Origin: a virus
Strand: one strand, 5' to 3'
DNA: 33,069 nucleotides
Virus genome (UHGV): UHGV-1427736
The stretch's first letter is position 1; each line of letters opens with the position of its first letter. The notes beneath the pieces are model-generated. The model was given only the letters and a program-made list of their open reading frames with translations. It did not search any database and was not told the DNA's origin. Positions 4,966 to 29,229 of the stretch are shown here, piece by piece. A program made the position numbers and the translations under genes.

Positions 4966-6156
4966 TTAATTGCTGTTAACCGAGGTGACCAGATTTGCCA
5001 GGTATTTATCGGTAATACGCTGGCGCAGGGTCAGGTTTTCGAGAGGAGGCACCGGGGTATAGTCGTAGTCGATATACAGTTTTCCGGCCTTGAGGGTTTC
5101 CGCATCGTTGGATTCTTCGCTGAACCAGCAGGTCGCATCCACGATATAGCCGTTTGTTTTCAGCTCACGGAATTTGGCATTGATGCCGTCAACGATGTCG
5201 CGAATCAGCGTTGCGGTGATGGGCTTGTCCACCGCCCACATGTGCGCCTCAGCCATCGTGTCGGCCAGCACCTGCGCGGTGCGGGTGTAGTTTTCAAAGA
5301 GGAACAGCGGGTCATCAGAGCAGGTACGGTTACCCCAGAAGCGGAAACCGTCGCGGCGAATCAGCGTTGTGACGCCAGACTCGTTCAACAGGTCAGCATC
5401 GGTGCCGGACTCCTGCAAATCCCAGAATACAGATGCGCTGATGCCGGTAACACCGTTTACCCCGACGTTGGACAGCGTTTTATGCCAGCCCTGCTCCTGG
5501 TCGATTTTAGCGCGCAGACCCAGCGCACGGGCGGTGGCATACGCGGTGGCGGTGGTACTGGTGACCGTATCCCATGCGAGGAAATCCGGCCAGATGACCA
5601 TCAGCTCACGCTGGCTGAAATTCTGGCGGTAGGCTTTCACCTCGGAAATGGTCTTACAGCCCCATGCGCTGATATATCCGAAAGCGCGCAGCTTCTGACA
5701 GACGGATGCTAGTGCAACAGCCACCTCTTTGGTATCCAGTCCCGGCACACCGAGAATACGCGGTTTAACACCGGTTACCGACTCCGCCGCCAGCAGGGCT
5801 TTCAGTCCGGTGTACTGACCGTTTTCGTCGGTGGTGCCGATGATATTGGAAACGGTCTGCGCAAGTTTCGTTTCCTCGTCGTCGCCGGTGCCGTCTTCCA
5901 CACGCACGACAACGGTGACCGGTTTTGACTGGTCGGCGATGGCCTGCAACGATGCCGCCAGCGTGCCTTTTTTACCGGCCTTTGCAATTGCGCTCTGCAC
6001 ATTGGTAATCAACACCGGTTTATTGAGGGGGAAGGTTTCCGCATCCGCATCGCTGGCCGTGCAGACCATGCCGACAATGGCAGTGGATACGGTGGAAATG
6101 ACGCGGGTGCCGTCGTTAATCTCCAGCACCTGCACGCCATGATGATAGTCACTCAT
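4966..6156 (-). CDS. FI: Contractile tail sheath protein gpFI
   Basis: Sheath-protein-sized ORF in the P2 FI position. The ORF-track start at 6309 gives a 51-aa N-terminal extension; I place the start at the ATG at 6156 (MSDYHHGVQVLE...), which has a GGAG RBS. Confidence 0.85.
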   Translation of the reverse strand: MSDYHHGVQVLEINDGTRVISTVSTAIVGMVCTASDADAETFPLNKPVLITNVQSAIAKAGKKGTLAASLQAIADQSKPVTVVVRVEDGTGDDEETKLAQTVSNIIGTTDENGQYTGLKALLAAESVTGVKPRILGVPGLDTKEVAVALASVCQKLRAFGYISAWGCKTISEVKAYRQNFSQRELMVIWPDFLAWDTVTSTTATAYATARALGLRAKIDQEQGWHKTLSNVGVNGVTGISASVFWDLQESGTDADLLNESGVTTLIRRDGFRFWGNRTCSDDPLFLFENYTRTAQVLADTMAEAHMWAVDKPITATLIRDIVDGINAKFRELKTNGYIVDATCWFSEESNDAETLKAGKLYIDYDYTPVPPLENLTLRQRITDKYLANLVTSVNSN

Positions 6157-6655
6157 CCGTTTAACTCCGTGGTTAATGGGTGCAACTATTTTCTGTTGTG
6201 CAGAGCATGAGACGCTATTTGACCTGGCTGGCCAGTGGATGAAACAACAGATAAAGAAAAGGCGGGCAATCAGCCCGCCAGCCTTGATTTGCACTCTCTC
6301 AATTTCCAACTGACAAAATACGTAGCCAAAACGCTATCAAATCTGACAGCCTGCTTTGAGCGAGAAACAGACATGGATGGCATACAGTGAAAGTAGCCGC
6401 ACAATGAGCATCACTGCAATTCTGAATTCAAGCTCTAATACTATTGAGACCGTATCATACAGTCACTCGCAAAAATTACTTTACCTGAGTGAAAAAATTG
6501 ATTCCAAGCAAAATGAAAACTTGTAATTCATTATTACATGCATAATAATGAATAAAAACTTGAGCTATATAAACCAAAGTTGTTCCGAATAGTCCGTTGA
6601 GACATCACTCGAATTATAGGAATACAAGGTTTTATTTTTATAAGGAATCGCTCCC

Positions 6656-8920
6656 ATGGGTTTGCAAAGCATAAGAATAAAAAACTTACTATCATTTAAT
6701 GATGTAATAATAAATTCCCTAGAGGATGTAAATTGCATTGTAGGGATGAATAATGTTGGCAAATCCAATCTTATGAAAATATTGAAATATTTTTACGACA
6801 AACTTGACGACATAAAAGTAATACCTCCTGATTTTCATTCTAGTTATACTCCTTCAGGGTCAATAACATTGACTTATGATGTAACAAGAATAAAGAGAAT
6901 TGTAATGAACCCTAATAACAATGGTCGCTTTCACAAGCATATTTATAACACTTTATTTAAGCCACAATCATTCATCCGAAAGCCGCAGAAATTCTGTCTT
7001 CCTTTCATATCTCCTTTGGGTTTCCAAAGAAAAAGCACTTATAGCATTACACTCACAATTTCTAAAGATGACTCCGTAACTTGGTCAATTAGCACACCAA
7101 ATGCCCGGCATCTAATTAAAACTCTATTTCCTTTTTTCCATATTGAAACCAGACACATTGACTTATACGACTGGAATAGCATATGGAAAATGCTCAGCAG
7201 TATAAATTCCTTTAATTTCTCTGAAATAAAAAAAGAAGAACTCCTTGAGTTTTTGAATGAGAAAATATCAACTAAGCGGGGTAGTTACAAGAAGTATATA
7301 GAAAGAGTTGAAAATGTAATCCATACTAAACCTTACACCTATAAAGATAAAGTCGTTAATTATCTAAAAATAGTTTTAGATGGCGATATTTTCATAAATA
7401 AAGGTGAAGAACTACATGTTCAGTCGGATGGCACGAACTCTCACAAATATCTTGAAATTATACTTAGCCTATTAATTTCATTAACAAGAACAGAATTTAT
7501 CAATCCAATTATATATATTGATGAACCTGAAATTGGGCTACATCCAAAACTTAGCGAGAACTTTATTGAGAACATAAGCCTGACATATAAAAAGTATGAT
7601 AAAACCCATGAGGAAATTGAGCCTGGAAAATATTCAACACCATATCCAACTCTTATATTTAGCACTCATTCTCCGAGTTTACTAAAACTCACGCTAAAAT
7701 CTTTCTTACATAAACAGCAGGTTTTGCATTTTTCAAAAGAACGTGACAACTCGACCAAAATTTCAAAATTAAACTCTAAATATAATGACATTAGATTTAT
7801 AAATATGCTTAGCGATAATGAGGCCCGTCTATTCTTTAGTGAATACATTCTATTTGTAGAGGGCGCCACAGAAGTTGAATTGTTTAGAAATTATAATCTG
7901 CAAAAGCTGTTTCCAGTACTTAAAAGGTTAGATGTGTATGATTGCGATGAAGTAATGTTGAAAAATATAAACCCCAGCTACTCAAATGCAGCCATCCCAT
8001 TTCTAGTAGTAAAGGATATTGATCAGATTGCCGTTGTTGACTTCGAACATGAACAATTTAAATTTAATTCGAAAGGGAAATCAATTATTAATAAAATCAT
8101 TAAGAGAGATAAACTACACTATTTTTCGACATACCAAAAACCTTTTCTTAACGCAGCAAAATTTCTTTTAAGCCAAGATGAAAGGAAAGTAACATTCAGT
8201 GAAAATGGCCTAAAATTCAGACACTTCAGTATAGGCAGAGTTATAAGCGCAGTTAATTTTTTATCCTCTAAAGATAATGTTTATTATACTTCTACAACGA
8301 TAGAAGGCTCATTGATCAATGAATTCTCTTTAGAGACATTCTCTTTATGGATCATTGACATAGTAATGAGAAGCTTTAATGTAAATAATAAAAACCCTGT
8401 AAAAATGATTAATGCTCTGCTGCAAAAATACGATATTAAAACCCAATCAAAACAACTTTTTCCCAAAATACTTTCAAAATGTGAAACAAATCATAACCTA
8501 CCATTGCGACACATGAGATTATTGAAAATCATTAAAATTAGATATGCTAAAGAAATAATTGATGAGTTTAAAAAAACCATCCCCGACGTAAAAGACCAAG
8601 TTGCTATCTTGCGCCTTATTTTTAGTGGCAAAACAGAAACTCTTGTAAGTATAGAAATGCATTATAAAATTGATCAAAAACCGATACGGCAAGATATATT
8701 GGATTATATCAAAGCATTAAAGTCAGAAAATTTCTCTTTTATGAGTTCTTACATAGGAAAGACTTCTGGATGGGTTACAAGCTTCATTGATTTTAGCCTT
8801 AATCATTATTCAGCCCTAGATAAAGAAAATGTCGAAAAAAAATTCCGCTTGGCTTTTCCTGAAATTTCGCATATCATCGATCATGCTTCTTCTTCGATAG
8901 AAGCTGGAGGGCTCAAATGA
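6656..8920 (+). CDS. OLD-family nuclease: ABC-type ATPase fused to a C-terminal Toprim-like domain
   Basis: 754 aa. Walker A GMNNVGKSN (aa ~30), Walker B/D-loop IIYIDEPEIGLHP, H-loop LIFSTHSPS; then FVEGATEVELF (aa ~400) and VVKDIDQ (aa ~455), consistent with Toprim Glu and DxD motifs. Gene is markedly AT-rich compared with the flanking phage genes. Confidence 0.7.
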   Translation: MGLQSIRIKNLLSFNDVIINSLEDVNCIVGMNNVGKSNLMKILKYFYDKLDDIKVIPPDFHSSYTPSGSITLTYDVTRIKRIVMNPNNNGRFHKHIYNTLFKPQSFIRKPQKFCLPFISPLGFQRKSTYSITLTISKDDSVTWSISTPNARHLIKTLFPFFHIETRHIDLYDWNSIWKMLSSINSFNFSEIKKEELLEFLNEKISTKRGSYKKYIERVENVIHTKPYTYKDKVVNYLKIVLDGDIFINKGEELHVQSDGTNSHKYLEIILSLLISLTRTEFINPIIYIDEPEIGLHPKLSENFIENISLTYKKYDKTHEEIEPGKYSTPYPTLIFSTHSPSLLKLTLKSFLHKQQVLHFSKERDNSTKISKLNSKYNDIRFINMLSDNEARLFFSEYILFVEGATEVELFRNYNLQKLFPVLKRLDVYDCDEVMLKNINPSYSNAAIPFLVVKDIDQIAVVDFEHEQFKFNSKGKSIINKIIKRDKLHYFSTYQKPFLNAAKFLLSQDERKVTFSENGLKFRHFSIGRVISAVNFLSSKDNVYYTSTTIEGSLINEFSLETFSLWIIDIVMRSFNVNNKNPVKMINALLQKYDIKTQSKQLFPKILSKCETNHNLPLRHMRLLKIIKIRYAKEIIDEFKKTIPDVKDQVAILRLIFSGKTETLVSIEMHYKIDQKPIRQDILDYIKALKSENFSFMSSYIGKTSGWVTSFIDFSLNHYSALDKENVEKKFRLAFPEISHIIDHASSSIEAGGLK

Positions 8921-9034
8921 GCTGACGCATGCCGTCACTTGCTCCAGCAAACACTAGCTCGGATTGTCTTGCGTCCGCTAAGCCGCTTTAAGCCTCACGG
9001 GGTGTAAAGATGTTATTGGTATCGAAGAGGAAGC
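8885..9034 (+). ncRNA. Candidate retron msr-msd (non-coding RNA) flanked by a1/a2 inverted repeats
   Basis: GCTTCTTCTTCGAT (8885-8898) and ATCGAAGAGGAAGC (9021-9034) form a 14-bp inverted repeat with one G-U wobble, enclosing ~122 nt that is GC-richer than the flanks. Inside: stem GCTGGAG (8903-8909) / CTCCAGC (8942-8948) around two small hairpins (GCTCA..TGAGC and TGACG..CGTCA). The repeat lies directly upstream of the RT and a2 overlaps its RBS. Confidence 0.3.
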
Positions 9035-9040
9035 TTTTAC

Positions 9041-10138
9041 ATGAAACATAAAATTAATAAAATTAACAATGATTTTTATAAAAATTTTTATCTAAGAGAA
9101 ACATTCTCCGATGATATTATTATGACTCACGGAGTCCCTGAGATTTCCAATGACGATTATAAAAGCATTTCATTAAAGAATAGATTATGTTTCACTATAA
9201 GAAAAAGCTCCCCGCATAAAAAAATACAAGAAAGACTTATAAAAAATTTCCTAGTAAAAGTTCCTCTTAGCTCACCTGCAATTGCCTATCGTAAAAAATT
9301 AAACTATTTGAATTTTCTAGAACCTCATATCCATGGTGAGAACTTTTGTCGAATTGACTTATGTAATTTTTTTCATAACATAAACTATAACTTTGCAAGG
9401 GAGTGTTTCAAATCCTACTTTGAAGATGAATATCTGGTAAATAAAAAAATCAAAGTTATTGATGCATTTTTAAATAGTTTATCTATTGAGATTGTAGTCA
9501 ACAATAAAAAGAAAAAAATATTTCCAATGGGATTCGCCACATCACCTTTCATATCCAATATAATTTTCAGAAAGTTAGATATTTTAATTAAAAGTTTGTG
9601 TGACAAAAGAAGCATCATTTACACTCGTTATGCTGATGATATGCTTTTTTCGAGCTCCGGGAAAGACAAACTTCTTGGAAGTGAACATTTTGACAACGAG
9701 ATATCAACTATTGTCAATACGGCAGGACTGTCCCTCAACAAACATAAAAAAATATTTAAGAAAGGCATAATCTCACTAAACGGCTATGTAATAGAAAATA
9801 AAAATGGAGGGGGAGAGAGAGGGAGTATAAGAATATCTAATGGAAAAATGTATTTAATACGGAAAGCACTAGATAAATTTAAAAAGGGATATTCTAAAGA
9901 GCATATTTGCAAAAAAGTATTTTCTGTTAAATCACCAACTGTCAAGTATAATAACAATGCAGATCAGTTTGTAACGGATTTTTATAATTCACAATTCTCT
10001 AATAAGTTAGCTGGTTATCGTTCATATTTAATATCATTAGTAAAATTTAATGATAAATTCAGATGTTTTCACGAAAACGAAATCACCAAATACTCAGTGA
10101 TTATTGATGAAATTTCTAATGCACTGCTAAAACCCTAG
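9041..10138 (+). CDS. Retron-type reverse transcriptase
   Basis: 365 aa. RT motifs IFPMGFATSPFISNIIFRKLD and IIYTRYADDMLF (YADD box), plus PHIHGENFCRIDLCNFF, align closely with the retron Ec86 RT as I recall it. Size and lack of extra domains fit a retron RT. GAGGAAG RBS. AT-rich. Confidence 0.8.
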   Translation: MKHKINKINNDFYKNFYLRETFSDDIIMTHGVPEISNDDYKSISLKNRLCFTIRKSSPHKKIQERLIKNFLVKVPLSSPAIAYRKKLNYLNFLEPHIHGENFCRIDLCNFFHNINYNFARECFKSYFEDEYLVNKKIKVIDAFLNSLSIEIVVNNKKKKIFPMGFATSPFISNIIFRKLDILIKSLCDKRSIIYTRYADDMLFSSSGKDKLLGSEHFDNEISTIVNTAGLSLNKHKKIFKKGIISLNGYVIENKNGGGERGSIRISNGKMYLIRKALDKFKKGYSKEHICKKVFSVKSPTVKYNNNADQFVTDFYNSQFSNKLAGYRSYLISLVKFNDKFRCFHENEITKYSVIIDEISNALLKP

Positions 10139-10158
10139 CCTTAGAAAGTTAATGTTTT

Positions 10159-10176
10159 GGCCCTAAAGCAAGGGCC
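10159..10176 (+). terminator. Hairpin downstream of the RT gene (possible terminator)
   Basis: GGCCCT-aaagca-AGGGCC stem-loop about 20 nt after the RT stop, but followed by TTAATAG rather than a clean T-run. Confidence 0.3.
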
Positions 10177-10560
10177 TTAATAGTAAAAATAGTTACCAGC
10201 ATAAGTATTCCTTCAACTAATCACACAAATTAACGTTAGCAACGTTCCCTTTTTACACCGTCTGAGCACTAAGCTGTCGGTCATTCTGGTCTACCATACT
10301 ATTATACGTAACATCCAAGAGTGTTCCTGCAAACGGTCGTAGAAAATGCGGGCTTCGCCATTTTCTGGCCGACGCCGGTCTCGTCGAGTTCTTCTGACTG
10401 TTCAAGTGCAAATGCGCCTGTAGGTATCCCTACAAAAGAAACCATCAACTTTTAGATAGTATCTGGCACTCCAACTCCCGCTGTTGACTCGGAGCGGACT
10501 GTCAGATTAGGCTTTACTCTGTACCATAGATACGTTAGCTCACTCCAGAGATCATACAAC

Positions 10561-11088
10561 TTATTGCGGCATGTCCGGCCATTCAGGATTTGAAGGGTCC
10601 ACACGACTGACCAGAACGCTGTAGCGTTCCCATGCATCCAGTCGACTGCGCTCCTCACCTGTTGCCATATTCAGCCTGACAGCGCGCTCCAGCGGCAAAA
10701 TTACGGATTCAGCTTCGGAAAGCAAAGCTGCCTTATGTAATTCCGCTAGTTTCTGCTGTTCGTCTGCCGTATAAATCCGCTTAATCACGGCACCATCCTT
10801 AAACATCCATTTACCTGAGTCATCAGCACGCCGGTTGGCAGTAATATCAGGAACCTCAACGACGCTAAAACCTTCAGGATTAAGCGTTGAAGCATCTCTG
10901 GTGATGGCGACAATAATATTATTTTCATCGTAAACAATCTTTATTGTGTCTGGCTGAAAATTACTTACTTCCTCATACCAGTTTTTTCCGTCTTCGGACC
11001 ATAACCAGATAACATCAAAATTCTTTGTTAGCTGATATTGCTCTTTTGTTTTTGGATTACCTGACTTAATGTTCTTTAAATGCTGCAT
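10561..11088 (-). CDS. G: Tail fiber assembly protein gpG
   Basis: 175 aa, same length as P2 gpG, directly downstream of H. Confidence 0.85.
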
Positions 11089-11091
11089 TAC

Positions 11092-12969
11092 TTACACCTG
11101 CGCAACGTTATACCATGTGCCATTGATGTATTTTTGTATCGGCCTGAAGATGGCCTCATCATCGCCATCTACTTCACCAATGATTCTTAATCCGGTAATC
11201 GTGTGTCCGGCTTTTTCATAACGACCACCTCGCGCCATCAATTGAACAACTCGCGTACCCAGGCGAACATCTTTCACATAGCGGGAATCAAAATTCCCCC
11301 AGTTGCTGGGTTGCATCTGACCGTTAACAGCAAATATTACCGAGTTATCTGTATTTCGCTGGCTATAGAAATGCCATCCGGACTCATCGCCTAACTCTGC
11401 AACCACTGGACGGTTGGAAGCACCCCATAAATTAAAGGTAATATTCTTCGTGGATGTGTTAGAGCTGGATAGCGAGAACTTTTTACTATCCCCTGCCTGA
11501 ATATTTTTAAAAGCAATAGCCACTCCATTCTGAAAACGGAATACACGCTGACTGTTAGCATAAACATCAAGAATACCGTCTCCATTCTGTTTAAATCCGG
11601 TATCATTATCACCAAGGACAATAGAGCTACCACCTAGTGCATTCGTCGTACCAACTCCAAGACAGCCATTAATGACGGCATTAACAAGAATATTTAGTGC
11701 ATCCCATTTCAGCGTCATCAGGTCTTTTGTTGTGGTACTCTGGCGGCTTCTCCATTTGAAATATTCATTGCCGTTATCCCCCGTTTCAAACCACATGTAT
11801 GAATCAGCGTCACCATCGGCATCATTTTTAAATCCAATCTTCGCCCAGTCAGTATTTCGAATCCAGGCAAGGATTGAGTCGTTTTCAAAAGTAATCCCGC
11901 CGGACAAGGTATCGCCATTCTTTTGCACCGCGTTCCTGGCCCTGTTTACCGTTTCCTGCAAACCGAGGTATTCGATAACGGCAGCAATGGTCGCTTTAGC
12001 CAGAATATCCCGCCCGACTTTTGTCAGGGTTGCCAAACTGGCAACATCATTCCCCGTAAAATACGGAAAGCTGTCTGCCGCAGTAGCAAGCCCCGCCAGC
12101 GCCGTCAGAGTGGCATCTTTCGGTTGCTTACCCGCAAGCGCATTAGTCATGGAGGTAGCAAAATTCGGGTCATTGCCCAGCGCCGCCGCCAGCTCGTTCA
12201 GCGTATTCAGTGCGTCAGGCGACGAGTCTACAATGGCGGCAATCGCGGCCATAACGAAAGCCGTGTTTGCGATCTGAGTATTATTCGTTCCCTGTCGCGC
12301 AGTTGGCGTCGTTGGCGTTCCGGTCAGTGCAGGGCTGTTTAATGGCGCTTTTTTGTTCGCTTCATCCATTACCGTCTTAACAGCTTTTGGTGTTGCGGCG
12401 AGCGTTTCAGACGTGCTGTTGGTCGCACTGCTTAACTGAGTAAAACCTTTTGCGGTCAGCGAGGCGTCAGGGTGACGTCGTGACTGTTCATGTTCTGCAA
12501 TTTTGTCATCAACGTAATCCTGCGTTGCCATCACCGTTGTGGTGTCAATGGTCAGCGCCACTGAGGCCACACTGCTGACGATGATGACCATGCGGCAGGT
12601 CTGCGAACGCCCTGAGCCTTCGGCAAGGGCAGGCTTATAACTTTCGGCCATGTTCGCCACGGCAATTAACGTTCCCGCATCATCGTACAGGCCAAGCTCA
12701 CGCATCCAGAAACCGCCCACCTCCGGCGGAATAACCAGCTCTGCGATAATATAATTACTGTTTCGTTTGTCCTGGCTGATTTTGTTCAGCGTATGTCGCC
12801 AGACTTCGTGGATAAGCCCGGTCTGTCCGGCATCCGGGACAGGCAATTTACCACCGCCATCCCCGACGGCCATCGTGGTAATGTTGACCTTCCGCCCTCC
12901 CGGTGCGGTTGCCGCTGCCAGCTTTGCTGCACCGGCAGTGGTGATAACGGTTTTGAATTTTGTGCTCAT
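11092..12969 (-). CDS. H: Tail fiber protein gpH
   Basis: 625 aa. Conserved P2 H-like N-terminus (MSTKFKTVITTAGAAKLAAATAPGGRKVNITTMAVGDGGG) with a variable C-terminal receptor-binding region. Confidence 0.85.
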   Translation of the reverse strand: MSTKFKTVITTAGAAKLAAATAPGGRKVNITTMAVGDGGGKLPVPDAGQTGLIHEVWRHTLNKISQDKRNSNYIIAELVIPPEVGGFWMRELGLYDDAGTLIAVANMAESYKPALAEGSGRSQTCRMVIIVSSVASVALTIDTTTVMATQDYVDDKIAEHEQSRRHPDASLTAKGFTQLSSATNSTSETLAATPKAVKTVMDEANKKAPLNSPALTGTPTTPTARQGTNNTQIANTAFVMAAIAAIVDSSPDALNTLNELAAALGNDPNFATSMTNALAGKQPKDATLTALAGLATAADSFPYFTGNDVASLATLTKVGRDILAKATIAAVIEYLGLQETVNRARNAVQKNGDTLSGGITFENDSILAWIRNTDWAKIGFKNDADGDADSYMWFETGDNGNEYFKWRSRQSTTTKDLMTLKWDALNILVNAVINGCLGVGTTNALGGSSIVLGDNDTGFKQNGDGILDVYANSQRVFRFQNGVAIAFKNIQAGDSKKFSLSSSNTSTKNITFNLWGASNRPVVAELGDESGWHFYSQRNTDNSVIFAVNGQMQPSNWGNFDSRYVKDVRLGTRVVQLMARGGRYEKAGHTITGLRIIGEVDGDDEAIFRPIQKYINGTWYNVAQV

Positions 12970-21835: not shown

Positions 21836-23608
21836 ATGACCATCACCACAGACACCACTCTTTTGCACGACCCGCGTCGTCAGGCGGCGCTGCTGTACTG
21901 GCAGGGGTTTTCCGTGCCGCAGATTGCCGCCATGTTGCAGATGAAACGCCCGACGGTGCAGAGCTGGAAACAGCGCGACGGCTGGGACAGCGTTGCCCCC
22001 ATCAGCCGTGTCGAAATGAGTCTGGAAGCGCGGCTGACCCAGCTCATTATCAAACCGCAGAAAACCGGCGGTGACTTCAAGGAAATTGACCTGCTCGGAC
22101 GCCAGATTGAACGACTGGCACGGGTAAACCGCTACAACCAGACCGGCAACGAGGCAGACCTTAATCCGAACATCGCTAACCGCAACAAAGGCGGGCGACG
22201 CAAACCGAAAAAGAATTTTTTCAGCGACGAGGCTATCGAAAAGCTGGAGCAGATTTTCTTTGAGCAGTCTTTCGAATATCAGTTGCACTGGTATCGCGCC
22301 GGGCTTGAGCACCGCATCCGCGATATCCTGAAATCCCGCCAGATTGGCGCGACGTTTTATTTTTCCCGCGAGGCGCTGCTGCGCGCCCTGAAAACCGGTC
22401 ATAACCAGATTTTTCTGTCGGCCAGTAAAACGCAGGCGTATGTGTTCCGCGAATACATCATCGCCTTTGCCCGGCTGGTTGACGTTGACCTGACCGGTGA
22501 CCCGATTGCCCTGGGCAATAACGGCGCAAAACTGATTTTTCTCGGCACCAACTCCAACACCGCACAGAGCCATAACGGCGACCTGTACGTCGACGAGATT
22601 TTCTGGATCCCGAATTTTCAGGTACTGCGTAAGGTGGCATCAGGTATGGCCTCACAGAGTCACCTGCGCTCGACCTATTTCTCCACCCCGTCCACGCTGG
22701 CGCACGACGCCTACCCGTTCTGGTCGGGGGAACTGTTTAACCGGGGACGCGCCAGCGCCGCTGAACGCGTGGAAATCGACGTCAGTCATAACGCCCTTGC
22801 CGGTGGGCTTCTCTGTGCGGACGGCCAGTGGCGGCAGATTGTCACCATTGAGGACGCGCTGAAAGGCGGCTGCACGCTGTTCGACATTGAGCAGCTCAAA
22901 CGTGAAAACAGCGCCGACGATTTTAAAAACCTGTTCATGTGTGAATTTGTTGACGACAAGGCGTCGGTGTTCCCGTTCGAGGAGCTGCAACGCTGCATGG
23001 TCGACACGCTGGAAGAATGGGAAGACTATGCGCCGTTTGCCGCCAATCCGTTCGGCTCCCGCCCGGTATGGATTGGTTACGACCCGTCACACCGTGGCGA
23101 CAGCGCCGGATGCGTGGTACTGGCACCGCCGGTGGTGGCCGGTGGCAAATTCAGAATACTTGAGCGTCACCAGTGGAAAGGCATGGACTTTGCCACTCAG
23201 GCTGAATCCATCCGCAAACTCACTGAAAAATACAACGTCGAATACATCGGAATTGATGCCACCGGCCTCGGTGTCGGCGTGTTCCAGCTCGTGCGCTCGT
23301 TCTATCCCGCCGCGCGCGATATCCGCTACACACCGGAAATGAAAACCGCAATGGTGCTCAAGGCAAAAGACGTTATCCGTCGTGGCTGTCTGGAATATGA
23401 CGTCAGCGCCACCGACATCACCAGCTCGTTTATGGCTATCCGCAAGACCATGACCAGCAGCGGACGCAGCGCCACCTATGAGGCCAGCCGCAGCGAGGAA
23501 GCCAGCCACGCCGACCTCGCCTGGGCGACCATGCACGCCCTGTTAAATGAGCCACTCACCGCCGGTATCAGCACCTCGCTGACATCCACCATTCTGGAGT
23601 TTTACTGA
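21836..23608 (+). CDS. P: Terminase large (ATPase) subunit gpP
   Basis: Start placed at MTITTDTTLLHDPRRQAALLYWQGFS (ATG at 21836, 590 aa). P2 P position. Confidence 0.9.
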   Translation: MTITTDTTLLHDPRRQAALLYWQGFSVPQIAAMLQMKRPTVQSWKQRDGWDSVAPISRVEMSLEARLTQLIIKPQKTGGDFKEIDLLGRQIERLARVNRYNQTGNEADLNPNIANRNKGGRRKPKKNFFSDEAIEKLEQIFFEQSFEYQLHWYRAGLEHRIRDILKSRQIGATFYFSREALLRALKTGHNQIFLSASKTQAYVFREYIIAFARLVDVDLTGDPIALGNNGAKLIFLGTNSNTAQSHNGDLYVDEIFWIPNFQVLRKVASGMASQSHLRSTYFSTPSTLAHDAYPFWSGELFNRGRASAAERVEIDVSHNALAGGLLCADGQWRQIVTIEDALKGGCTLFDIEQLKRENSADDFKNLFMCEFVDDKASVFPFEELQRCMVDTLEEWEDYAPFAANPFGSRPVWIGYDPSHRGDSAGCVVLAPPVVAGGKFRILERHQWKGMDFATQAESIRKLTEKYNVEYIGIDATGLGVGVFQLVRSFYPAARDIRYTPEMKTAMVLKAKDVIRRGCLEYDVSATDITSSFMAIRKTMTSSGRSATYEASRSEEASHADLAWATMHALLNEPLTAGISTSLTSTILEFY

Positions 23609-24642
23609 TGAGCAAGAAAAAAGGGAAAACACCGCAACCTGCGGCAAAAAAAATGACCGCCAGCGCCCCGAAAATGGAGGCATTCACCTTTGGTGAGCCG
23701 GTGCCGGTACTCGACCGCCGTGACATTCTGGATTACGTCGAGTGCATCAGTAACGGCAGATGGTATGAGCCACCGGTCAGCTTTACCGGTCTGGCAAAAA
23801 GCCTGCGTGCTGCCGTACATCACAGCTCACCGATTTACGTCAAACGTAATATTCTGGCTTCAACGTTTATTCCGCACCCGTGGCTTTCCCAGCAGGATTT
23901 CAGCCGCTTTGTGCTGGATTTTCTGGTGTTCGGTAATGCGTTTCTGGAAAAGCGTTACAGCACCACCGGTAAGGTCATCAGACTGGAAACCTCACCGGCA
24001 AAATATACCCGCCGTGGTGTGGAAGAGGATGTTTACTGGTGGGTGCCGTCCTTCAACGAGCCGACAGCCTTCGCGCCCGGCTCCGTGTTTCACCTGCTGG
24101 AGCCCGATATTAATCAGGAGCTGTACGGCCTGCCGGAATATCTGAGCGCCCTTAACTCTGCCTGGCTGAATGAGTCGGCCACGCTGTTCCGCCGCAAGTA
24201 TTACGAAAACGGCGCACATGCCGGATACATCATGTACGTCACTGATGCCGTGCAGGATCGCAACGATATCGAAATGCTTCGCGAAAACATGGTGAAGTCG
24301 AAAGGCCGCAACAACTTTAAAAACCTGTTTCTCTATGCCCCGCAGGGGAAAGCCGACGGCATTAAAATTATCCCGCTCAGTGAAGTGGCAACGAAGGACG
24401 ATTTTTTTAATATCAAAAAAGCCAGCGCCGCTGACCTGCTGGACGCGCACCGCATCCCCTTTCAGTTGATGGGCGGCAAGCCGGAGAACGTCGGGTCGCT
24501 GGGCGATATTGAGAAAGTGGCAAAGGTCTTTGTCCGCAATGAGCTTATCCCGTTACAGGACAGGATCCGCGAGATAAACGGCTGGCTCGGTCAGGAGGTC
24601 ATCCGCTTTAAAAACTACTCACTGGACACTGACAACGGCTGA
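23608..24642 (+). CDS. Q: Portal protein gpQ
   Basis: 344 aa ORF; ATGA overlap with the P stop, as in P2. Confidence 0.9.
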   Translation: MSKKKGKTPQPAAKKMTASAPKMEAFTFGEPVPVLDRRDILDYVECISNGRWYEPPVSFTGLAKSLRAAVHHSSPIYVKRNILASTFIPHPWLSQQDFSRFVLDFLVFGNAFLEKRYSTTGKVIRLETSPAKYTRRGVEEDVYWWVPSFNEPTAFAPGSVFHLLEPDINQELYGLPEYLSALNSAWLNESATLFRRKYYENGAHAGYIMYVTDAVQDRNDIEMLRENMVKSKGRNNFKNLFLYAPQGKADGIKIIPLSEVATKDDFFNIKKASAADLLDAHRIPFQLMGGKPENVGSLGDIEKVAKVFVRNELIPLQDRIREINGWLGQEVIRFKNYSLDTDNG

Positions 24643-24647
24643 ACATC

Positions 24648-24669
24648 GCCGCCTGCGGGCGGCTTTTTT
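24648..24669 (+). terminator. Rho-independent terminator after Q
   Basis: GCCGCC-tgcg-GGCGGC hairpin followed by TTTTTT, starting 6 nt after the Q stop. Confidence 0.65.
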
Positions 24670-24811
24670 ACACCCCGTCATCACGCCCTCACACGTTCGC
24701 CACTGTACAAAACACCCCGCAGACACACCAACGCCCCGGCAGGCCGACTAAACGCCATCACGACGCGCTCAGACGCTGAAAAAATAAAATCAGCACCACC
24801 GCCAGCGCGCA

Positions 24812-24830
24812 GTGCTTTCCCCGCCTCGCC
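24812..24830. other. P2-type cos site (19-nt cohesive end sequence)
   Basis: gtgctttccccgcctcgcc at 24812-24830 is the reverse complement of the P2 cohesive-end sequence GGCGAGGCGGGGAAAGCAC as I recall it, and sits in the expected position next to Q. Confidence 0.6.
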
Positions 24831-24958
24831 CGCCCGCTTCATGGGTCGGTTTTAATGCAGGTGCACGAACACACTGGAGACGCACCAGTACTGGCGGTGG
24901 TCACGTAGATCCGCCCCTTAAAAGCCATGCAGAATAATGCAACTATTGCGGGCGTCGG

Positions 24959-25378
24959 CTAATCATCTTCTAAAGGTGGAATTTTGATGCCACTAATTAG
25001 CAGTACTTTCCGGTATGCCTCAAAAATAATGTTGTGTGTTTTTTGTAAATCATCGAGCATTTTTTGCCGTCCTGCTGGGGTATCTTTGGCAAAATTATGA
25101 GCGCGAAAAAAATCATGTGCCAAGTAGTTTCTGGCTTTAAGAGCATCTGACACATACTCCAGTGTATCAGCATCCTCCACCATCCTAGACTTCAGTGCGT
25201 AATTCAATTTACCCAGCGTGTATTTATCCATTTCTAAAAACTGTTTTTTCAGCGACTGTATATCTTTCCCCTGACTCATATCATACTCAGTGATAACATT
25301 TATCAACTCAGTCTCCAGTAATTGAGCTGCTTCCGAAGCATAACCAAATTTCCAATAAACCGTATCAAGCGTCACCAT
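24959..25378 (-). CDS. Small hypothetical protein with an Rx4H (HEPN-like) motif; partner of the adjacent HNH nuclease
   Basis: 139 aa, AT-rich, with no P2 counterpart I recognise. Contains ARNYLAHDFF (R-x4-H). GGGGAA RBS 8 nt ahead of the ATG; 91 bp downstream of the HNH gene on the same strand. Confidence 0.5.
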   Translation of the reverse strand: MVTLDTVYWKFGYASEAAQLLETELINVITEYDMSQGKDIQSLKKQFLEMDKYTLGKLNYALKSRMVEDADTLEYVSDALKARNYLAHDFFRAHNFAKDTPAGRQKMLDDLQKTHNIIFEAYRKVLLISGIKIPPLEDD

Positions 25379-25469
25379 ATAATCTATTCCCCATATAACA
25401 AATCACACCCCAAATTAAATCATAATACATAATTAAATCTAACGCCTCGCTGCACCAGAAGAAGTCATG

Positions 25470-26801
25470 TTAACGCTTATCATGGAACTTTTTCCATTTT
25501 GTCATCAACTTTCCAGCATCAAGTTCTACATGATGCGGTTGTAGAGTTTTACCCTCAAACATAGTTTTGTGGATACAATTAATAGAAAAATGAACCGTTA
25601 AGTCCTCTGGATTAATCCCCATTAATCCTTTATCAAACATTCGGTGTAAACTTACTTCAAGTAACAGGCCATTAGATGTGTTATTATTTGCTGATTCTGT
25701 TATTGCTTCAATATGTGCGGCTTCCAATATCCCCTCTGGCAATGGATAGCCAGTAATAGCACATCTGCCATTGAAGTTATCCCAAACACGGCGTTTGAAA
25801 TCAGCTTGATCTCCAGCATGACGGACTTTGTGAGTAACCTCGACTGTTCGTCCTGTAGCACAGGTATCGTTTGCGGCCTTGAAAGGATTAGTTAGACTTT
25901 CATTAATGGCTATATCCGTTCCATCCATGATAAGAGATATTTCATTATTGGGTTCGGATGATGTTAATGGACTTATGTACTGATTGCTTAAAAAAGTCAT
26001 ACTAGATTCTTCATCAGTCGCGAGTTTCCACGCTTCTGATTGTGTCATTGTTAGCAATGCCGTTTGATAAACTTGCTTATTAAAATAACGTTTATCTTTC
26101 TTGTCACTCCCCATATTAATAGTACTAGATTTAATCGGAAGTGTTTTATCACCAATTAGTAGATCACGTATTTCTACAGTCTCTTCTAAGGTATCAATAG
26201 GAGCTACTATAGGGTTAGTCAACGGGTTATCTACATGATCTACGTGGTTGTGTCGTAAATGCCACTCTATAGCACTATCTTTTATATGTATCTCGCAGAC
26301 AGGGCATACAATAAGCCCCATAGATGTTACAGGTAGCTTTTTGCCACCGATTAAGCGTAATGTATTTGCATTCTGGTTATGTACTTTCTTTTGGTTCTGT
26401 GTCAGTACACTACGCTTAGCCTCTAAACGGGTCGGAATCTTAGCAAGATTAAGCGATTTACGGCTCTCTTGTCTCTCAAGATCATAGATCCGAATCCCTG
26501 CTCCAGTTTTGATTTTTGTCCACATAGAGATAGAACTAAGGAATTTATGTCCATGTACTTTTTCATAATCAGCATAAGCTTGCAAAGTAGCAGTGGAACT
26601 ATCTAATCCTTTTTTACGGAGTGCTGTATATTGCTGAAAAAGATTAATAGCATGAGCTGTAATAGAGCGCCTATTCTCTATAATTTGCGTTTTTTTTGCT
26701 GCTTGTTCTGCTTGCAATGCTTTTTGTTCAGGGGTAAGCGACTTCTTTTTGGCTTTCTTGGTTCTTTTCTTACTCAAAGTTTTCTTACTGTTATTGTTCA
26801 T
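25470..26801 (-). CDS. Zinc-finger / HNH (His-Me finger) nuclease with a basic N-terminal tail
   Basis: 443 aa. Lys-rich N-terminus (MNNNSKKTLSKKRTKKAKKKS); C2H2-like CPVCEIHIKDSAIEWHLRHNH; C-terminal HNH motif GRCAITGYPLPEGILEAAHIEAI...NGLLLEVSLHRMFDKGL. AT-rich gene between cos and A. Confidence 0.65.
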   Translation of the reverse strand: MNNNSKKTLSKKRTKKAKKKSLTPEQKALQAEQAAKKTQIIENRRSITAHAINLFQQYTALRKKGLDSSTATLQAYADYEKVHGHKFLSSISMWTKIKTGAGIRIYDLERQESRKSLNLAKIPTRLEAKRSVLTQNQKKVHNQNANTLRLIGGKKLPVTSMGLIVCPVCEIHIKDSAIEWHLRHNHVDHVDNPLTNPIVAPIDTLEETVEIRDLLIGDKTLPIKSSTINMGSDKKDKRYFNKQVYQTALLTMTQSEAWKLATDEESSMTFLSNQYISPLTSSEPNNEISLIMDGTDIAINESLTNPFKAANDTCATGRTVEVTHKVRHAGDQADFKRRVWDNFNGRCAITGYPLPEGILEAAHIEAITESANNNTSNGLLLEVSLHRMFDKGLMGINPEDLTVHFSINCIHKTMFEGKTLQPHHVELDAGKLMTKWKKFHDKR

Positions 26802-26910
26802 TTTGCAAGCCTTTAATCTAATTCATGGAAAGGGGCATTCACTTGCCCTGTATCCAGTAAACTGACATAACACGATATAAGCAAGCTCCGTAATTCTTTC
26901 ATGTTAATCA

Positions 26911-29229
26911 TCAATGGTCCATTGTGAATCCCGGCCACTCATCAGCGACCGGATACGTGAATTTTTTACCGTCGTAATTTACAGTCGCGCCACGCGCCAG
27001 CGCCTCAAGCTCCCATCGCTGCGGCCTGATACCGTTCTGAGCAAGGTCAACGCGGATACGGGTGATTTGCATTCGTTCCGACCTGTTCAGTCTGGCCGAT
27101 GGCGCTATTTCATGCGGTTTTAACGGGCTTCCGTTTCTTTGCTGACGGTTTGGTCTTCTCAGGCCGTGTTTTAATGCGCTTCTGAGCGCCCTCACGACCT
27201 CCGGGTCATTCCATTCGATAACACCGTCATCAACCAGATTAAGCACGGCTGCGGCGTGCTCAGAAGGTGTGGGAGCCGGTAACGAAGTATCACCACCGGT
27301 GAGCTTTCCACAGTTATTGACAGGACTCCGAGGCGCGGCGATGCCGCTTTTTAAAGTCAAAGGCTCAACGACCGGAACTTTCGGCACAATGCGCCAGTCC
27401 GTCGTTCTGGTGATATGAATATGACGCGCGCCGAGATGCGGCGCGTAAATGCCGACCACTCTCTCGACTTCTTCCTCATACTCGTTAACGTCATCCGACG
27501 GGCTACGGGCGACCCTGACAGTCTGACAATCGCGCGGGACATTTGCCCCACCCTGCGCGCTGATATACAACGCAAAATCACCACTGTCTGCGGCGGCGCG
27601 TGCAGCCTCGACGCGTTCGTCAAACTCATCAGCAATGCTGACGCCGCGAGGCAATTTGCGTAGTTCACGGTAAGCCCCCATTGTCGGCAGGCCAACCGTT
27701 TTAAATTGCGGAATGCGCCACGTTGACGCCCATGCGGTAACAGCCGCGGCAGTATCTTTCAGCGGCCTGCCAGTATCGTTATCGAGCTGACCATCCAGTG
27801 CATAGCCGTCGATGTTTTTTGAGATGTATTTCGCGATATATCCCGCAGCACCGCCCCGGTTAAGGTGTTTTGCCTGAAAACGGTTTCGCGCAGCGCCTCT
27901 TTCGTCACCATCCTCTTTGAGCGCATAGCGACGCATGATTTCGATAATCTGGTTACGCTGGCGTGGATTACAAAAAAGCATCATATGCCAGTGCGGCGTT
28001 CCGTCGTGGTGTGGCTCAACGACACGCAAACCGTAGACCTGTAAATCATTATCCTTGAATGCCGTCCGCATCAGGCTCCAGATACGGCAGAGATAACGCT
28101 GCGCATCCTTTGGATTAAATGCCTCATCGTTCCAGCCGTGATTAAGCTGAACGGTTTTACTTTCGCCTTTTCCGACCTGACGTGTCGGGTGATACTTTGA
28201 CGGCGCGGTCAGCGTGATAAACATCCCCACATCACCCTCTGCGGCGGCGTAACGCTCAATACCGGCAATGGTGTTCATCAGCTCCATCCGGCGAATTTCA
28301 GGATTAGAAATACTGCCCATCACCTTACTGATAAGGTCGATGCGCTCGCCGGTTTCCCTGTTTTCAAGGTCACACGATTTAAGAAATTCCAGATTTGCCT
28401 GGCGGCGTGCACGTACATCACGAATGGCATGTTTACTGGCATAAGGAGAACGGTCTTTATTCACCTCCCCGACAGCAATCAGTAACGCCTCATGCCAGCG
28501 CATACGCTGGCCTTTAAGCTGATGAGTCCACCACTCATCGTTAAACAGACGGGCAATGGCAGAATATGCCTGCCTCGTGGTTATCTGTCCTTTACGGTAT
28601 TTTTTCCAGTAGAGCGGGGAAATATTGAAAGCACGTGCAGCGCCAGCAACATGACCATACAGATGATCCTGCGCCTCATCCGTAAACAGCGATTCTTTTT
28701 CGCCATGCGCATCCACCCAGGCATCGCAGAGTTCCTCATACATCATGAAAAGCTGCGATGAGATACGGGCGGCAAACTTTTTCAGCTCCTTGTCATTCAT
28801 CCCCGGCAGACGCGCATAATGGTCACGCTCTGCCAAAAACAGCAACGACGCGTCGGTGTTCATTTCATGGCGCTGATTCACACGCTCAATGCGCGGCCAT
28901 AAACGACGCTGAAAAGTGGATGTGAGGAAATAAAACCCGTGCACCGGGCTTTTATTGCGCCGGATGTAGTCATAGCGTGAAGTAAACAGCGAGCGCAAAA
29001 AGTAAGGCAGGCGGTTAATCGTGGATAAAACACCTTGCACCTGACGCATCTCATCACGTGTAAGGGGTCTTTCGCGCCCGACAGCCTCGCGTGGCGCGTT
29101 CCATGCATAAGCACCGGCAAACGTCTTACCGGTGCCTGCGGCAAATGCTGACGGAGGGACAAAACGCCCGGAGGCTTTAACGGCCATATGAGCCAAAAGC
29201 CTCTGAACAACGCTTGCTGAGTTGCTCAA
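26911..29229 (-). CDS. A: Replication initiation protein gpA (rolling-circle nickase)
   Basis: 772 aa ORF in the P2 A position. A possible alternative start at Met15 (MAVKASGRF, ATG at 29187) would reduce the overlap with the upstream ORF. Confidence 0.85.
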   Translation of the reverse strand: MSNSASVVQRLLAHMAVKASGRFVPPSAFAAGTGKTFAGAYAWNAPREAVGRERPLTRDEMRQVQGVLSTINRLPYFLRSLFTSRYDYIRRNKSPVHGFYFLTSTFQRRLWPRIERVNQRHEMNTDASLLFLAERDHYARLPGMNDKELKKFAARISSQLFMMYEELCDAWVDAHGEKESLFTDEAQDHLYGHVAGAARAFNISPLYWKKYRKGQITTRQAYSAIARLFNDEWWTHQLKGQRMRWHEALLIAVGEVNKDRSPYASKHAIRDVRARRQANLEFLKSCDLENRETGERIDLISKVMGSISNPEIRRMELMNTIAGIERYAAAEGDVGMFITLTAPSKYHPTRQVGKGESKTVQLNHGWNDEAFNPKDAQRYLCRIWSLMRTAFKDNDLQVYGLRVVEPHHDGTPHWHMMLFCNPRQRNQIIEIMRRYALKEDGDERGAARNRFQAKHLNRGGAAGYIAKYISKNIDGYALDGQLDNDTGRPLKDTAAAVTAWASTWRIPQFKTVGLPTMGAYRELRKLPRGVSIADEFDERVEAARAAADSGDFALYISAQGGANVPRDCQTVRVARSPSDDVNEYEEEVERVVGIYAPHLGARHIHITRTTDWRIVPKVPVVEPLTLKSGIAAPRSPVNNCGKLTGGDTSLPAPTPSEHAAAVLNLVDDGVIEWNDPEVVRALRSALKHGLRRPNRQQRNGSPLKPHEIAPSARLNRSERMQITRIRVDLAQNGIRPQRWELEALARGATVNYDGKKFTYPVADEWPGFTMDH

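What the first reader, a model, noticed from the sequence alone, without database searches (positions are those of the whole stretch)
9041..10138. Retron RT with non-canonical versions of retron signature motifs
The finger/palm motifs resemble Ec86, but where Ec86 has NAxxH (NATPH) this protein reads NFLEPH, and where Ec86 has the VTG motif (RKVTGLVI) it reads ISLNGYVI. The YADD box is intact, so the enzyme is probably active. The altered motifs may mean different ncRNA recognition or a divergent retron subtype.
Basis: partly seen in the sequence, partly recalled or inferred. Interest (0 to 1): 0.5.

Follow-up and report, generated by a model that had tools for sequence, protein, structure and literature searches.

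The report
Ordinary Eco8-family retron in P2 prophage
The gene is the reverse transcriptase of a complete Eco8-type (type I-B2) anti-phage retron carried as cargo in an E. coli P2-like prophage, and its "odd" motifs are the normal ones for that known family.

Summary
ORF 9041-10138 (+) encodes a 365-aa reverse transcriptase (RT) with YADD intact. A HMMER alignment to Ec86 puts FLEPH opposite NATPH and SLNGYVI opposite KVTGLVI.

The interpretation needs correcting. These motifs are the consensus of a known family, not a peculiarity of this protein. In 57 homologues the columns read [FLYM][LF]EPH and S[LIV]NGY[VT]I. The solved Retron-Eco8 RT reads YLEPH and ING, and ING has been named and mutated in print.

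The RT is 41% identical to the Eco8 RT. It scores 353 bits on PADLOC RT_I-B. It matches the family consensus at 73 of 76 well-conserved columns.

Immediately upstream lie the two partners:
- an Eco8-family OLD-like ATPase-Toprim effector at 6656-8920 (NCBIfam NF038234, 654 bits);
- a 150-nt msr-msd ncRNA at 8885-9034, with inverted repeats, a branching G at 8900 and covariation support.

The order effector-ncRNA-RT recurs in 76 of 80 related loci. The 4.1-kb module sits in the variable Z region of a P2-like prophage, between the tail sheath and tail-fibre assembly genes.

Verdict: a new, uncharacterised member of a known kind. It probably works like Eco8, where phage SSB binds the msDNA and releases the nuclease, causing abortive infection. 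Interest is low.

The parts
6368..10491 (.). Low-GC (~30%) cargo island in the Z region of a P2-like prophage, between the tail sheath gene and the tail-fibre assembly gene
   Evidence: GC profile. Homology to other P2-like prophages stops at 6366/6368 and resumes at 10492. Only 2 of 5426 complete E. coli genomes carry the cargo, while 376 others share only the flanks and hold different cargo. PGAP annotation of the identical UPEC85 locus.
6656..8920 (+). Retron effector: 754-aa OLD-like ABC-ATPase + Toprim nuclease. Walker A K36, Walker B IYIDEPE 286-292, Toprim VEGATE 401-406 (EGxxE), DID 454-456.
   Evidence: NCBIfam NF038234 retron_eff_Eco8, 654 bits against a cutoff of 250. PADLOC ATPase-Toprim_I-B, 699 bits. 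PDB Retron Eco8 OLD nuclease E=3e-227 over residues 1-750. 46% identity to Eco8 OLD over 580 aa. Motif positions.
8885..9034 (+). Retron ncRNA (msr-msd), 150 nt. Its first 36 nt overlap the last 12 codons of the effector.
   Evidence: 15-nt inverted repeat. MFE -57.5 kcal/mol, z=-3.5. Collinear with the Eco8 ncRNA at L082:1738-1902. Covariation: 97% of cells paired and 11 pairs changed on both sides against 2.3 in shuffles, 0/500. Across 18 distant loci, 95% paired and 54 double-changed cells against 16.
8885..8899 (+). IRa1 (GCTTCTTCTTCGATA); also encodes the effector C-terminal residues A-S-S-S-I
   Evidence: Pairs with 9020-9034 through 14 Watson-Crick pairs and 1 G-U pair.
8900..8900 (+). 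Predicted branching (priming) guanosine, equivalent to Eco8 rG18
   Evidence: First base after IRa1. Invariant GATAG in 18 of 18 aligned ncRNAs. In L082 the same G is the 18th base of AAGCTTCTTCTTCGATAG, matching the rG18 of PMC12887533. Its role here is inferred.
8903..8948 (+). msr core: closing stem 8903-8909/8942-8948 around two small hairpins at 8910-8923 and 8924-8936 (Eco8 dsRa, RSLa and RSLb equivalents)
   Evidence: Helices 2-4 have 9 of 16 pairs with changes on both sides.
8949..9018 (+). Predicted msd template, giving a ~70-nt msDNA, with two hairpins at 8955-8980 and 8986-9009
   Evidence: By register with Eco8, where synthesis starts opposite the G 5' of the opposing G and stops at A73. 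The ends are inferred, not measured.
9019..9034 (+). Opposing G (9019) and IRa2 (9020-9034, TATCGAAGAGGAAGC). IRa2 contains the Shine-Dalgarno-like GAGGAA of the RT gene.
9041..10138 (+). Retron reverse transcriptase, 365 aa, type I-B2. D106, F111, PMG 162-164, YADD 197-200, LNG 246-248, FLEPH 92-96.
   Evidence: PADLOC RT_I-B, 353 bits, with the next model (RT_II-A) at 115 bits. PDB Retron Eco8 RT E=6.5e-88. 41% identity to Eco8 RT. Matches the family consensus at 73 of 76 conserved columns.
9311..9328 (+). NFLEPH: region X, the family's counterpart of NAxxH
9770..9793 (+). ISLNGYVI: RT7/region Y start, counterpart of VTG (called ING in Eco8)
6340..6360 (.). Left arm of the imperfect inverted repeat that brackets the cargo (partner at 10488-10508)
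   Evidence: The right flank matches the feature annotated 'left inverted repeat' in P2-EC48 and P2-EC31 Z-region records.
10488..10508 (.). Right arm of the same inverted repeat

Best explanation
The ORF is the reverse transcriptase of a complete three-part type I-B2 retron of the Retron-Eco8 family. The retron is carried as accessory cargo in the Z region of an E. coli P2-like prophage.

Most likely mechanism, by homology with Eco8:
1. The 150-nt ncRNA (8885-9034) folds so that IRa1 and IRa2 pair.
2. The RT primes on the 2'-OH of G8900.
3. It copies about 70 nt of the msd template (9018 back to about 8949) into msDNA that stays joined to the msr RNA.
4. RT, msDNA and the OLD-like ATPase-Toprim effector assemble into an autoinhibited complex.
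5. [quoted passage not shown]
6. The nuclease degrades phage and host DNA, and the infection aborts.

The FLEPH and LNG motifs are this family's normal versions of NAxxH and VTG. They do not indicate an unusual enzyme.

Shown here: the family assignment of both proteins, intact catalytic residues, the presence and conserved structure of the ncRNA, the conserved gene order, and the prophage context.

Inferred: msDNA synthesis and its ends, complex formation, the trigger, and the abortive-infection outcome.
For: RT:
- PADLOC RT_I-B 353 bits, with all 25 best hits shown being retron RT models.
- PDB Retron Eco8 RT E=6.5e-88 over residues 6-363, 41% identity.
- D106, F111, PMG, YADD and LNG line up with Eco8 D107, F112, PMG163-165, YADD198-201 and ING247-249. 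Mutation of each of these abolishes defence (PMC13402713).
- Family consensus at 73 of 76 conserved columns.
- FLEPH and SLNGYVI are the majority residues in 57 homologues.

Effector:
- NF038234 at 654 bits and PDB Eco8 OLD at E=3e-227.
- K36, Walker B, the EGxxE glutamate and DxD are all present. EGxxE is the I-B2 signature in Mestre 2020.

ncRNA:
- IRa1/IRa2 with flanking Gs.
- Same layout and about 70% sequence identity to the Eco8 ncRNA, whose rG18 maps onto G8900.
- Covariation on close and distant sets.

Architecture: effector-spacer-RT on one strand in 76 of 80 related loci from Proteobacteria and Firmicutes. A retron-form inverted repeat was found automatically in 39 of them.

Context: identical locus in E. 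coli UPEC85, where PGAP already names the effector 'retron Eco8 family effector endonuclease'.

Eco8 mechanism: PMC12887533 and PMC13402713. Eco8 is typed I-B2 in PMC8632793.
Against: - Nothing here measures function. No msDNA, expression or defence data exist for this variant.
- Identity to Eco8 is only 41% (RT) and 46% (effector).
- The predicted msDNA is shorter than Eco8's (about 70 nt against 75) with different hairpin sequences, so the trigger or phage range may differ.
- The predicted msDNA alone, folded as DNA, is no more stable than shuffled sequence (z=+0.6).
- Rfam has no model that matches the ncRNA.
- Promoter-like sites in the island are no more frequent than chance.
Confidence: 0.88

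Rival explanations
1. The altered NAxxH and VTG motifs mark a functionally divergent enzyme, with a different way of recognising or priming on its ncRNA than known retrons.
For: The residues do differ from the 14 of 16 classical retron RTs that carry NAXXH and VTG (PMC6868368). Type I-B2 has its own ncRNA family (PMC7736814). The Eco8 msDNA has two DNA stem-loops, unlike Eco1, Eco4 and Eco7.
Against: The difference applies to the whole I-B2 family and is already represented by solved Eco8 structures. The window protein carries the family consensus. Its ncRNA has the standard retron layout of IRa1, branching G, msr hairpins, msd and IRa2. Eco8 primes from rG18 through a 2',5' bond like other retrons.
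Confidence: 0.05
2. The RT is not a retron RT but another defence RT of the kind known from P2 variable regions (Abi-P2, DRT or UG class). The neighbouring OLD-like protein is an independent defence gene such as OLD, Gabija GajA or PARIS AriA/B.
For: P2-like phages are known to carry a non-retron RT in a variable locus (Odegrip 2006, cited in PMC9122126). The effector also gives weak hits to AriA, Old and GajA models at 46-62 bits. The RT gives 38.6 bits to Drt2.
Against: These hits are roughly 10-fold weaker than the retron I-B models (699 and 353 bits). Both proteins match the two Eco8 chains in the PDB end to end. A covarying msr-msd ncRNA lies between the genes. The pair is syntenic in 76 of 80 loci.
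Confidence: 0.02
3. The locus is a decayed or silent retron remnant that no longer functions.
For: It is rare, present in 2 of 5426 complete E. coli genomes. It is AT-rich horizontally acquired DNA. No expression data exist, and no promoter stands out above chance.
Against: Both ORFs are full length relative to Eco8. All tested catalytic residues are intact. The ncRNA stems are intact with compensatory changes in relatives. The two E. coli copies are 99.5-100% identical. Relatives at 71-90% identity in Serratia, Pectobacterium, Proteus, Morganella and Providencia keep the whole module.
Confidence: 0.05

Closest known systems
Retron-Eco8 (type I-B2; E. coli 200499; PDB 23or, 9lbq, 9p4j and others)
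   Same: - Same three parts in the same order: OLD-like ATPase-Toprim effector, ncRNA, RT.
- Both proteins align end to end with the Eco8 chains.
- Same catalytic residues.
- Same variant motifs: xLEPH, and [I/L]NG in place of VTG.
- ncRNA collinear, with identical IRa1 core GCTTCTTCTTCGATA-G and the conserved CTCAC.G.GTGTAAAGAT...TTGG-TATCG 3' element.
- In both, IRa1 overlaps the effector C-terminal codons ASSSIEA.
   Different: - 41% (RT) and 46% (effector) identity only.
- ncRNA shorter: 150 nt against 165 nt, with predicted msr about 58 nt against 64 and msDNA about 70 nt against 75.
- Hairpin sequences differ.
- LNG rather than ING.
- Sits in a P2-like prophage Z region.
- No experimental data.
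Retron-Eco1 (Ec86, type II-A3)
   Same: Retron RT fold and motif order. YADD, the H of region X and the G of VTG are conserved. HMMER E=5e-14 over residues 54-253.
   Different: Ec86 has canonical NATPH and VTG. It has a different effector type (nucleoside deoxyribosyltransferase-like) and ncRNA, and belongs to a different RT clade.
Retron-Eco6 (Ec48, type IV)
   Same: Same RT clade 3 as I-B2 in Mestre 2020. It is one of the two validated retron RTs that already deviate at the N of NAXXH, and it has T to H in VTG (PMC6868368). This shows the motif drift is clade-level.
   Different: Its effector is a two-transmembrane protein, and it guards RecBCD. It was not compared by sequence here.
Type I-B1 and I-A retrons (Eco7/Ec78, Eco4/Ec83) and class 1/2 OLD nucleases, GajA, PARIS AriAB
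   Same: ABC-ATPase (plus Toprim or HNH) effectors. Weak profile matches.
   Different: The second PADLOC RT_I-B model scores 92 bits against 353. The Toprim motif IV here is EGxxE (I-B2), not EDxxL (I-B1). OLD, GajA and AriAB work without an RT or msDNA.

Membership tests
Retron (general) | RT with retron-type regions X and Y and an intact YxDD catalytic box | tested here: met
   YADD at 197-200. The region X His (H96) and region Y Gly (G248) are the residues Mestre 2020 calls most conserved, and both are invariant in the family alignment. All 25 best PADLOC hits shown are retron RT models.
Retron (general) | Adjacent ncRNA with flanking inverted repeats (a1/a2) and a conserved branching G next to a1 | tested here: met
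   IRa1 8885-8899, G8900, G9019, IRa2 9020-9034. Covariation. GATAG invariant in 18 of 18 sequences.
Retron (general) | Production of msDNA branched through a 2',5' bond | not testable with these tools
   Needs nucleic-acid extraction. Predicted to be about 70 nt by register with Eco8.
Type I-B2 retron (Retron-Eco8 family) | RT belongs to the I-B2 / Eco8 RT group | tested here: met
   PADLOC PDLC02938 RT_I-B at 353 bits against the next type at 115 bits. Eco8 RT E=6.5e-88 and 41% identity over the full length. No explicit tree with curated references was built.
Type I-B2 retron (Retron-Eco8 family) | Associated protein with N-terminal ABC-ATPase (Walker A/B) plus Toprim, motif IV EGxxE and motif V DxD | tested here: met
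   GMNNVGKS (K36), IYIDEPE, VEGATE and KDID. NF038234 at 654 bits, above the 250 cutoff. Definition from PMC7736814.
Type I-B2 retron (Retron-Eco8 family) | Gene order effector - ncRNA - RT on one strand | tested here: met
   Window 6656-8920, 8885-9034, 9041-10138. Same order in Eco8 (construct OLD-ncRNA-RT) and in 76 of 80 loci.
Type I-B2 retron (Retron-Eco8 family) | ncRNA of the I-B2 structural family (closing stem, two msr hairpins, two msd hairpins) | tested here: met
   Consensus fold of window, six close relatives, Eco8 and Marinomonas: 6 helices, 97% of cells paired. The layout matches the Eco8 description in PMC12887533. There is no Rfam model to test against.
Type I-B2 retron (Retron-Eco8 family) | Anti-phage abortive infection triggered by phage SSB binding the msDNA | not testable with these tools
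   Known for Eco8 only.
Canonical retron RT motif set (NAxxH + VTG) | Literal N-A-x-x-H in region X and V-T-G in RT7 | tested here: not met
   F-L-E-P-H and L-N-G at the homologous positions. The literal motifs are also absent from Eco8 and from most of the 57 homologues. They describe most retron clades but do not define retron membership.

The most novel reading that the evidence does not exclude
This enterobacterial subclade is found in E. coli, Serratia, Pectobacterium, Proteus, Morganella and Providencia and is 41-46% identical to Eco8. It has a shorter msDNA (about 70 nt) with different hairpins. It may therefore sense a different set of phage SSBs, or another ssDNA-binding trigger, than Eco8.

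The tight overlaps may also couple expression of the three components. IRa1 and the priming G lie inside the effector's last codons, and the RT ribosome-binding site lies inside IRa2.
Probability: 0.25. Interest if true: 0.35.

Novelty: new member of a known kind. Interest (0 to 1): 0.13.

Why it matters
The main value is as a correction. Literal NAxxH and VTG strings are not reliable tests for retron RTs. In RT clade 3, including the structurally solved Eco8, only the His and the Gly persist, so motif-based screens would wrongly flag or miss this family.

There is also an annotation gap. NCBI's pipeline names the effector but leaves this RT as a generic "reverse transcriptase domain-containing protein". 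NCBIfam gave no Eco8-family RT hit, and the ncRNA has no Rfam model.

Practically, the locus offers a second, 41%-identical natural variant of Eco8 with a shorter msDNA. It could be compared with Eco8 to map what sets trigger specificity. It is also another example of defence cargo in the P2 Z region.

Tried and rejected
- Rfam search of 5500-11500 at E<=1 found nothing, so the ncRNA had to be found through inverted repeats and comparative analysis.
- The first fold of a wider stretch (8840-9060) was not distinguishable from shuffles (z=-1.5). The exact 150-nt element is (z=-3.5).
- The predicted msDNA folded alone as DNA is not unusually stable, so I make no claim about DNA hairpin stability.
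- The promoter and terminator scan is at chance level in this AT-rich island. The candidate ncRNA promoter is kept only as a remark.
- No phage genome in the collection carries the module. One Vibrio phage has a 36%-identical relative.
- My simple perfect-arm search missed the inverted repeat in about half of the related loci. This reflects the method and does not show that the repeat is absent there.
- The Abi-P2/DRT reading and the stand-alone OLD/PARIS/Gabija reading were considered and rejected on score ratios and synteny.
- I looked in both Eco8 structure papers for a discussion of the region X histidine (H97, E95, P96) and found none.
- I did not run structure prediction or a fold search, because solved structures of a 41%-identical homologue already exist.

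Full report
**1. The observation**

The ORF at 9041-10138 (+) is real and encodes 365 aa. It matches Pfam RVT_1 at E=4.5e-15. NFLEPH lies at residues 91-96, PMG at 162-164, YADD at 197-200 and ISLNGYVI at 244-251.

That position is not conserved among relatives, where it reads D, H, N, K or E.

**2. What the protein is**

The RT scores 353 bits on PADLOC's RT_I-B model, and the next retron type scores 115 bits. Against solved structures it matches the Retron-Eco8 RT at E=6.5e-88 over residues 6-363. Identity to the Eco8 RT is 41%. P0017 is the Eco8 RT apart from one residue.

A database search returned 558 homologues. A close group at 71-99% identity comes from E. coli, Serratia, Proteus, Morganella, Providencia and Edwardsiella. 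There is then a step down to about 44% and below, which includes Eco8.

In an alignment of 57 of these homologues the two questioned motifs are the family consensus:
- Position 92: F/L/Y/M
- Position 93: L/F
- E94: 54 of 57
- P95: 53 of 57
- H96: 57 of 57
- S245: 55 of 57
- Position 246: L/I/V
- N247: 51 of 57
- G248: 57 of 57
- Y249: 54 of 57

Of 76 columns conserved at 80% or more among the other 56 sequences, the window protein has the consensus residue at 73. It is a typical family member.

**3. What the literature already says**

Simon et al. 2019 report NAXXH and VTG in 14 of 16 validated retron RTs. Ec48 is an outlier at both motifs (PMC6868368).

Mestre et al. 2020 state that H is the most conserved residue of NAXXH and G the most conserved of VTG. 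They place type I-B2 in RT clade 3 together with Ec48 (PMC7736814).

Retron-Eco8 is a type I-B2 system (PMC8632793). Ji et al. 2026 name the "ING motif (I247-G249)" of the Eco8 RT. They show that mutating ING, YADD, PMG, D107 or F112 abolishes defence (PMC13402713). All of these residues have counterparts in the window protein: LNG, YADD, PMG, D106 and F111.

The "non-canonical" motifs are therefore a known clade-level trait.

**4. The rest of the system**

*Effector.* Directly upstream, 6656-8920 (+) encodes a 754-aa protein. It scores 654 bits on NCBIfam NF038234 "retron Eco8 family effector endonuclease" (cutoff 250) and 699 bits on PADLOC ATPase-Toprim_I-B. It matches the Eco8 OLD nuclease in the PDB at E=3e-227 over residues 1-750. 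Identity is 46% over the 580 residues available in a partial Eco8 contig. Walker A K36, Walker B, the Toprim EGxxE glutamate (the I-B2 signature of Mestre 2020) and DxD are all present.

*ncRNA.* Between and overlapping the two genes is a 150-nt element at 8885-9034. A 15-nt inverted repeat (8885-8899 with 9020-9034) is flanked on the inside by G8900 and G9019. The element folds at -57.5 kcal/mol, z=-3.5.

I fetched the Eco8 locus. Its ncRNA starts AAGCTTCTTCTTCGATAG, which puts the published priming rG18 exactly on the G that corresponds to window G8900. The two ncRNAs are collinear.

Covariation supports the structure on two alignments:
- *Close set* (window, six close relatives, Eco8 and a Marinomonas locus). 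The consensus has six helices: the IR stem, a closing stem, two msr hairpins and two msd hairpins. 97% of cells are paired. 11 pairs changed on both sides, against 2.3 in shuffles (0/500) and 0-2 in slid controls.
- *Distant set* (18 proteobacterial loci). The IR stem and one msr hairpin keep 95% pairing. 54 cells are double-changed, against 16 in shuffles.

*Predicted RNA and DNA ends.* By register with Eco8, the msr would run from 8900 to about 8957. The msd template would run from 9018 back to about 8949, giving an msDNA of about 70 nt where Eco8 has 75. These ends are inferred.

**5. Conservation of the architecture**

In 80 related genomic loci from Proteobacteria and Firmicutes, the effector lies upstream of the RT on the same strand in 76. 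The other four have at most 1,140 nt of upstream DNA. A retron-form repeat (arm-G ... G-arm) was picked up automatically in 39 loci.

The module conserved with the Serratia and Pectobacterium copies spans window 6617-10194. Relatives sit next to integrases, phage tail genes or AcaB-type regulators, so the module moves between mobile elements.

**6. Context**

The window matches E. coli UPEC85 at 100%. The neighbouring genes are P2-like: ogrK, D, tape measure, tail tube and tail sheath on one side, and tail-fibre assembly, tail fibre and baseplate on the other.

The 30%-GC island is bounded at 6367/6369 and 10491 by comparison with other P2-like prophages, which carry different cargo there. Only 2 of 5426 complete E. 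coli genomes have this cargo. Another 376 share only the flanks.

The right flank matches what GenBank records of P2-EC48 and P2-EC31 "proviral Z-region" annotate as an inverted repeat. An imperfect inverted repeat at 6340-6360 and 10488-10508 brackets the island. In phage P2 itself this position holds Z/fun; that point comes from my own knowledge.

**7. Mechanism**

The best-supported account is that the locus works as Eco8 does. The RT makes msDNA from the ncRNA. RT, msDNA and OLD assemble 4:4:4 in an autoinhibited state. Phage SSB then binds the msdDNA and releases the Toprim nuclease, which degrades phage and host DNA and aborts the infection (PMC12887533, PMC13402713).

For this window, only the parts list and their integrity are shown. 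Every functional step is inferred from a 41-46% identical homologue.

Points against, or open:
- The predicted msDNA alone does not fold better than shuffles.
- No promoter stands out above chance.
- The trigger range may differ from Eco8's.

**8. Rivals**

- A mechanistically divergent RT is unlikely. The motif state is shared by the whole family and the ncRNA has the standard retron layout.
- A non-retron defence RT plus an independent OLD, PARIS or Gabija gene is excluded by score ratios, synteny and the ncRNA.
- A dead remnant is unlikely, given intact ORFs, catalytic residues and RNA stems, and conservation across genera.

**9. Verdict**

This is a correct sequence observation with an over-reading of its significance. 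The locus is a new, uncharacterised member of the known type I-B2 (Eco8) retron family, located in a P2 prophage hotspot. Novelty: new member of a known kind. Interest: low.

Noticed in passing
window 24643-26910: A second low-GC (~38%) cargo island lies between the portal gene gpQ (23608-24642, +) and the replication gene gpA (26911-29229, -). This is the old/tin hotspot of P2-like phages described by Rousset et al. 2022. Here it holds a 443-aa protein with a C-terminal HNH_2 endonuclease domain (25470-26801, -) and a 139-aa ORF with no family match (24959-25378, -). It could be an uncharacterised defence candidate.
   Followed up: partly
window 8885-8920: IRa1 and the predicted priming G lie inside the last 12 codons of the effector, GCT TCT TCT TCG ATA GAA GCT... 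= A-S-S-S-I-E-A. The same ASSSIEA tail and overlap occur in Eco8. In all proteobacterial loci where the repeat was found, IRa1 sits within or abuts the effector 3' end. The same bases are therefore constrained by both protein and RNA.
   Followed up: partly
window 9020-9041: The Shine-Dalgarno-like GAGGAA of the RT gene (about 9028-9033) lies inside IRa2. The IRa1/IRa2 duplex of the ncRNA would therefore cover the RT ribosome-binding site. Eco8 has GGAGAAGAAG in the same place. This could couple ncRNA folding to RT translation.
   Followed up: no
window 8849-8877: A promoter-like site, TTGGCT-17-TATCAT, ends 7 nt before the first base of IRa1. Eco8 has a perfect TATAAT at the same offset (L082:1727-1732). 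Such sites are at chance frequency in this AT-rich island and this one lies in coding sequence, so it is only a lead for an internal ncRNA-RT promoter.
   Followed up: partly
window 6340-6360 and 10488-10508: An imperfect inverted repeat (21 nt, 81% complementary, weakly extendable to about 45 nt) brackets the cargo island exactly at its borders. The right arm region matches the annotated 'left inverted repeat' of the P2-EC48 and P2-EC31 Z-region records. It may be the recombination site through which Z-region cargo is exchanged.
   Followed up: partly
window 6368-6616 and 10195-10491: Two stretches inside the island (249 nt and 297 nt) are not shared with the Serratia or Pectobacterium copies of the retron. 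In 5426 E. coli genomes they occur only in the same two strains. They carry no annotation and no Rfam or family hit, and only ORFs of 52 aa or less. Their origin and role are unknown.
   Followed up: partly
window 10159-10176: A GC-rich hairpin, GGCCCT-aaagca-AGGGCC, lies 21 nt after the RT stop and inside the part of the module conserved with Serratia and Pectobacterium. It has no T-run, so the terminator scan did not flag it. It could be the end of the transcript.
   Followed up: no
window 9041-10138; L081 (UPEC85): There is an annotation gap. PGAP names the effector 'retron Eco8 family effector endonuclease' but calls the RT only 'reverse transcriptase domain-containing protein'. The best NCBIfam hit for the RT is the St85 RT model at 118 bits, below its 235-bit cutoff. 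The ncRNA is not annotated and Rfam has no matching model.
   Followed up: yes
L085, L086, L083 (relatives): Close relatives of the module sit in different mobile contexts. In Morganella it is next to a phage integrase and excisionase. In a Proteus-like contig it is next to lambda-type tail tip genes. In a metagenomic contig it is next to AcaB-family regulators. The module therefore moves as a unit between elements.
   Followed up: no
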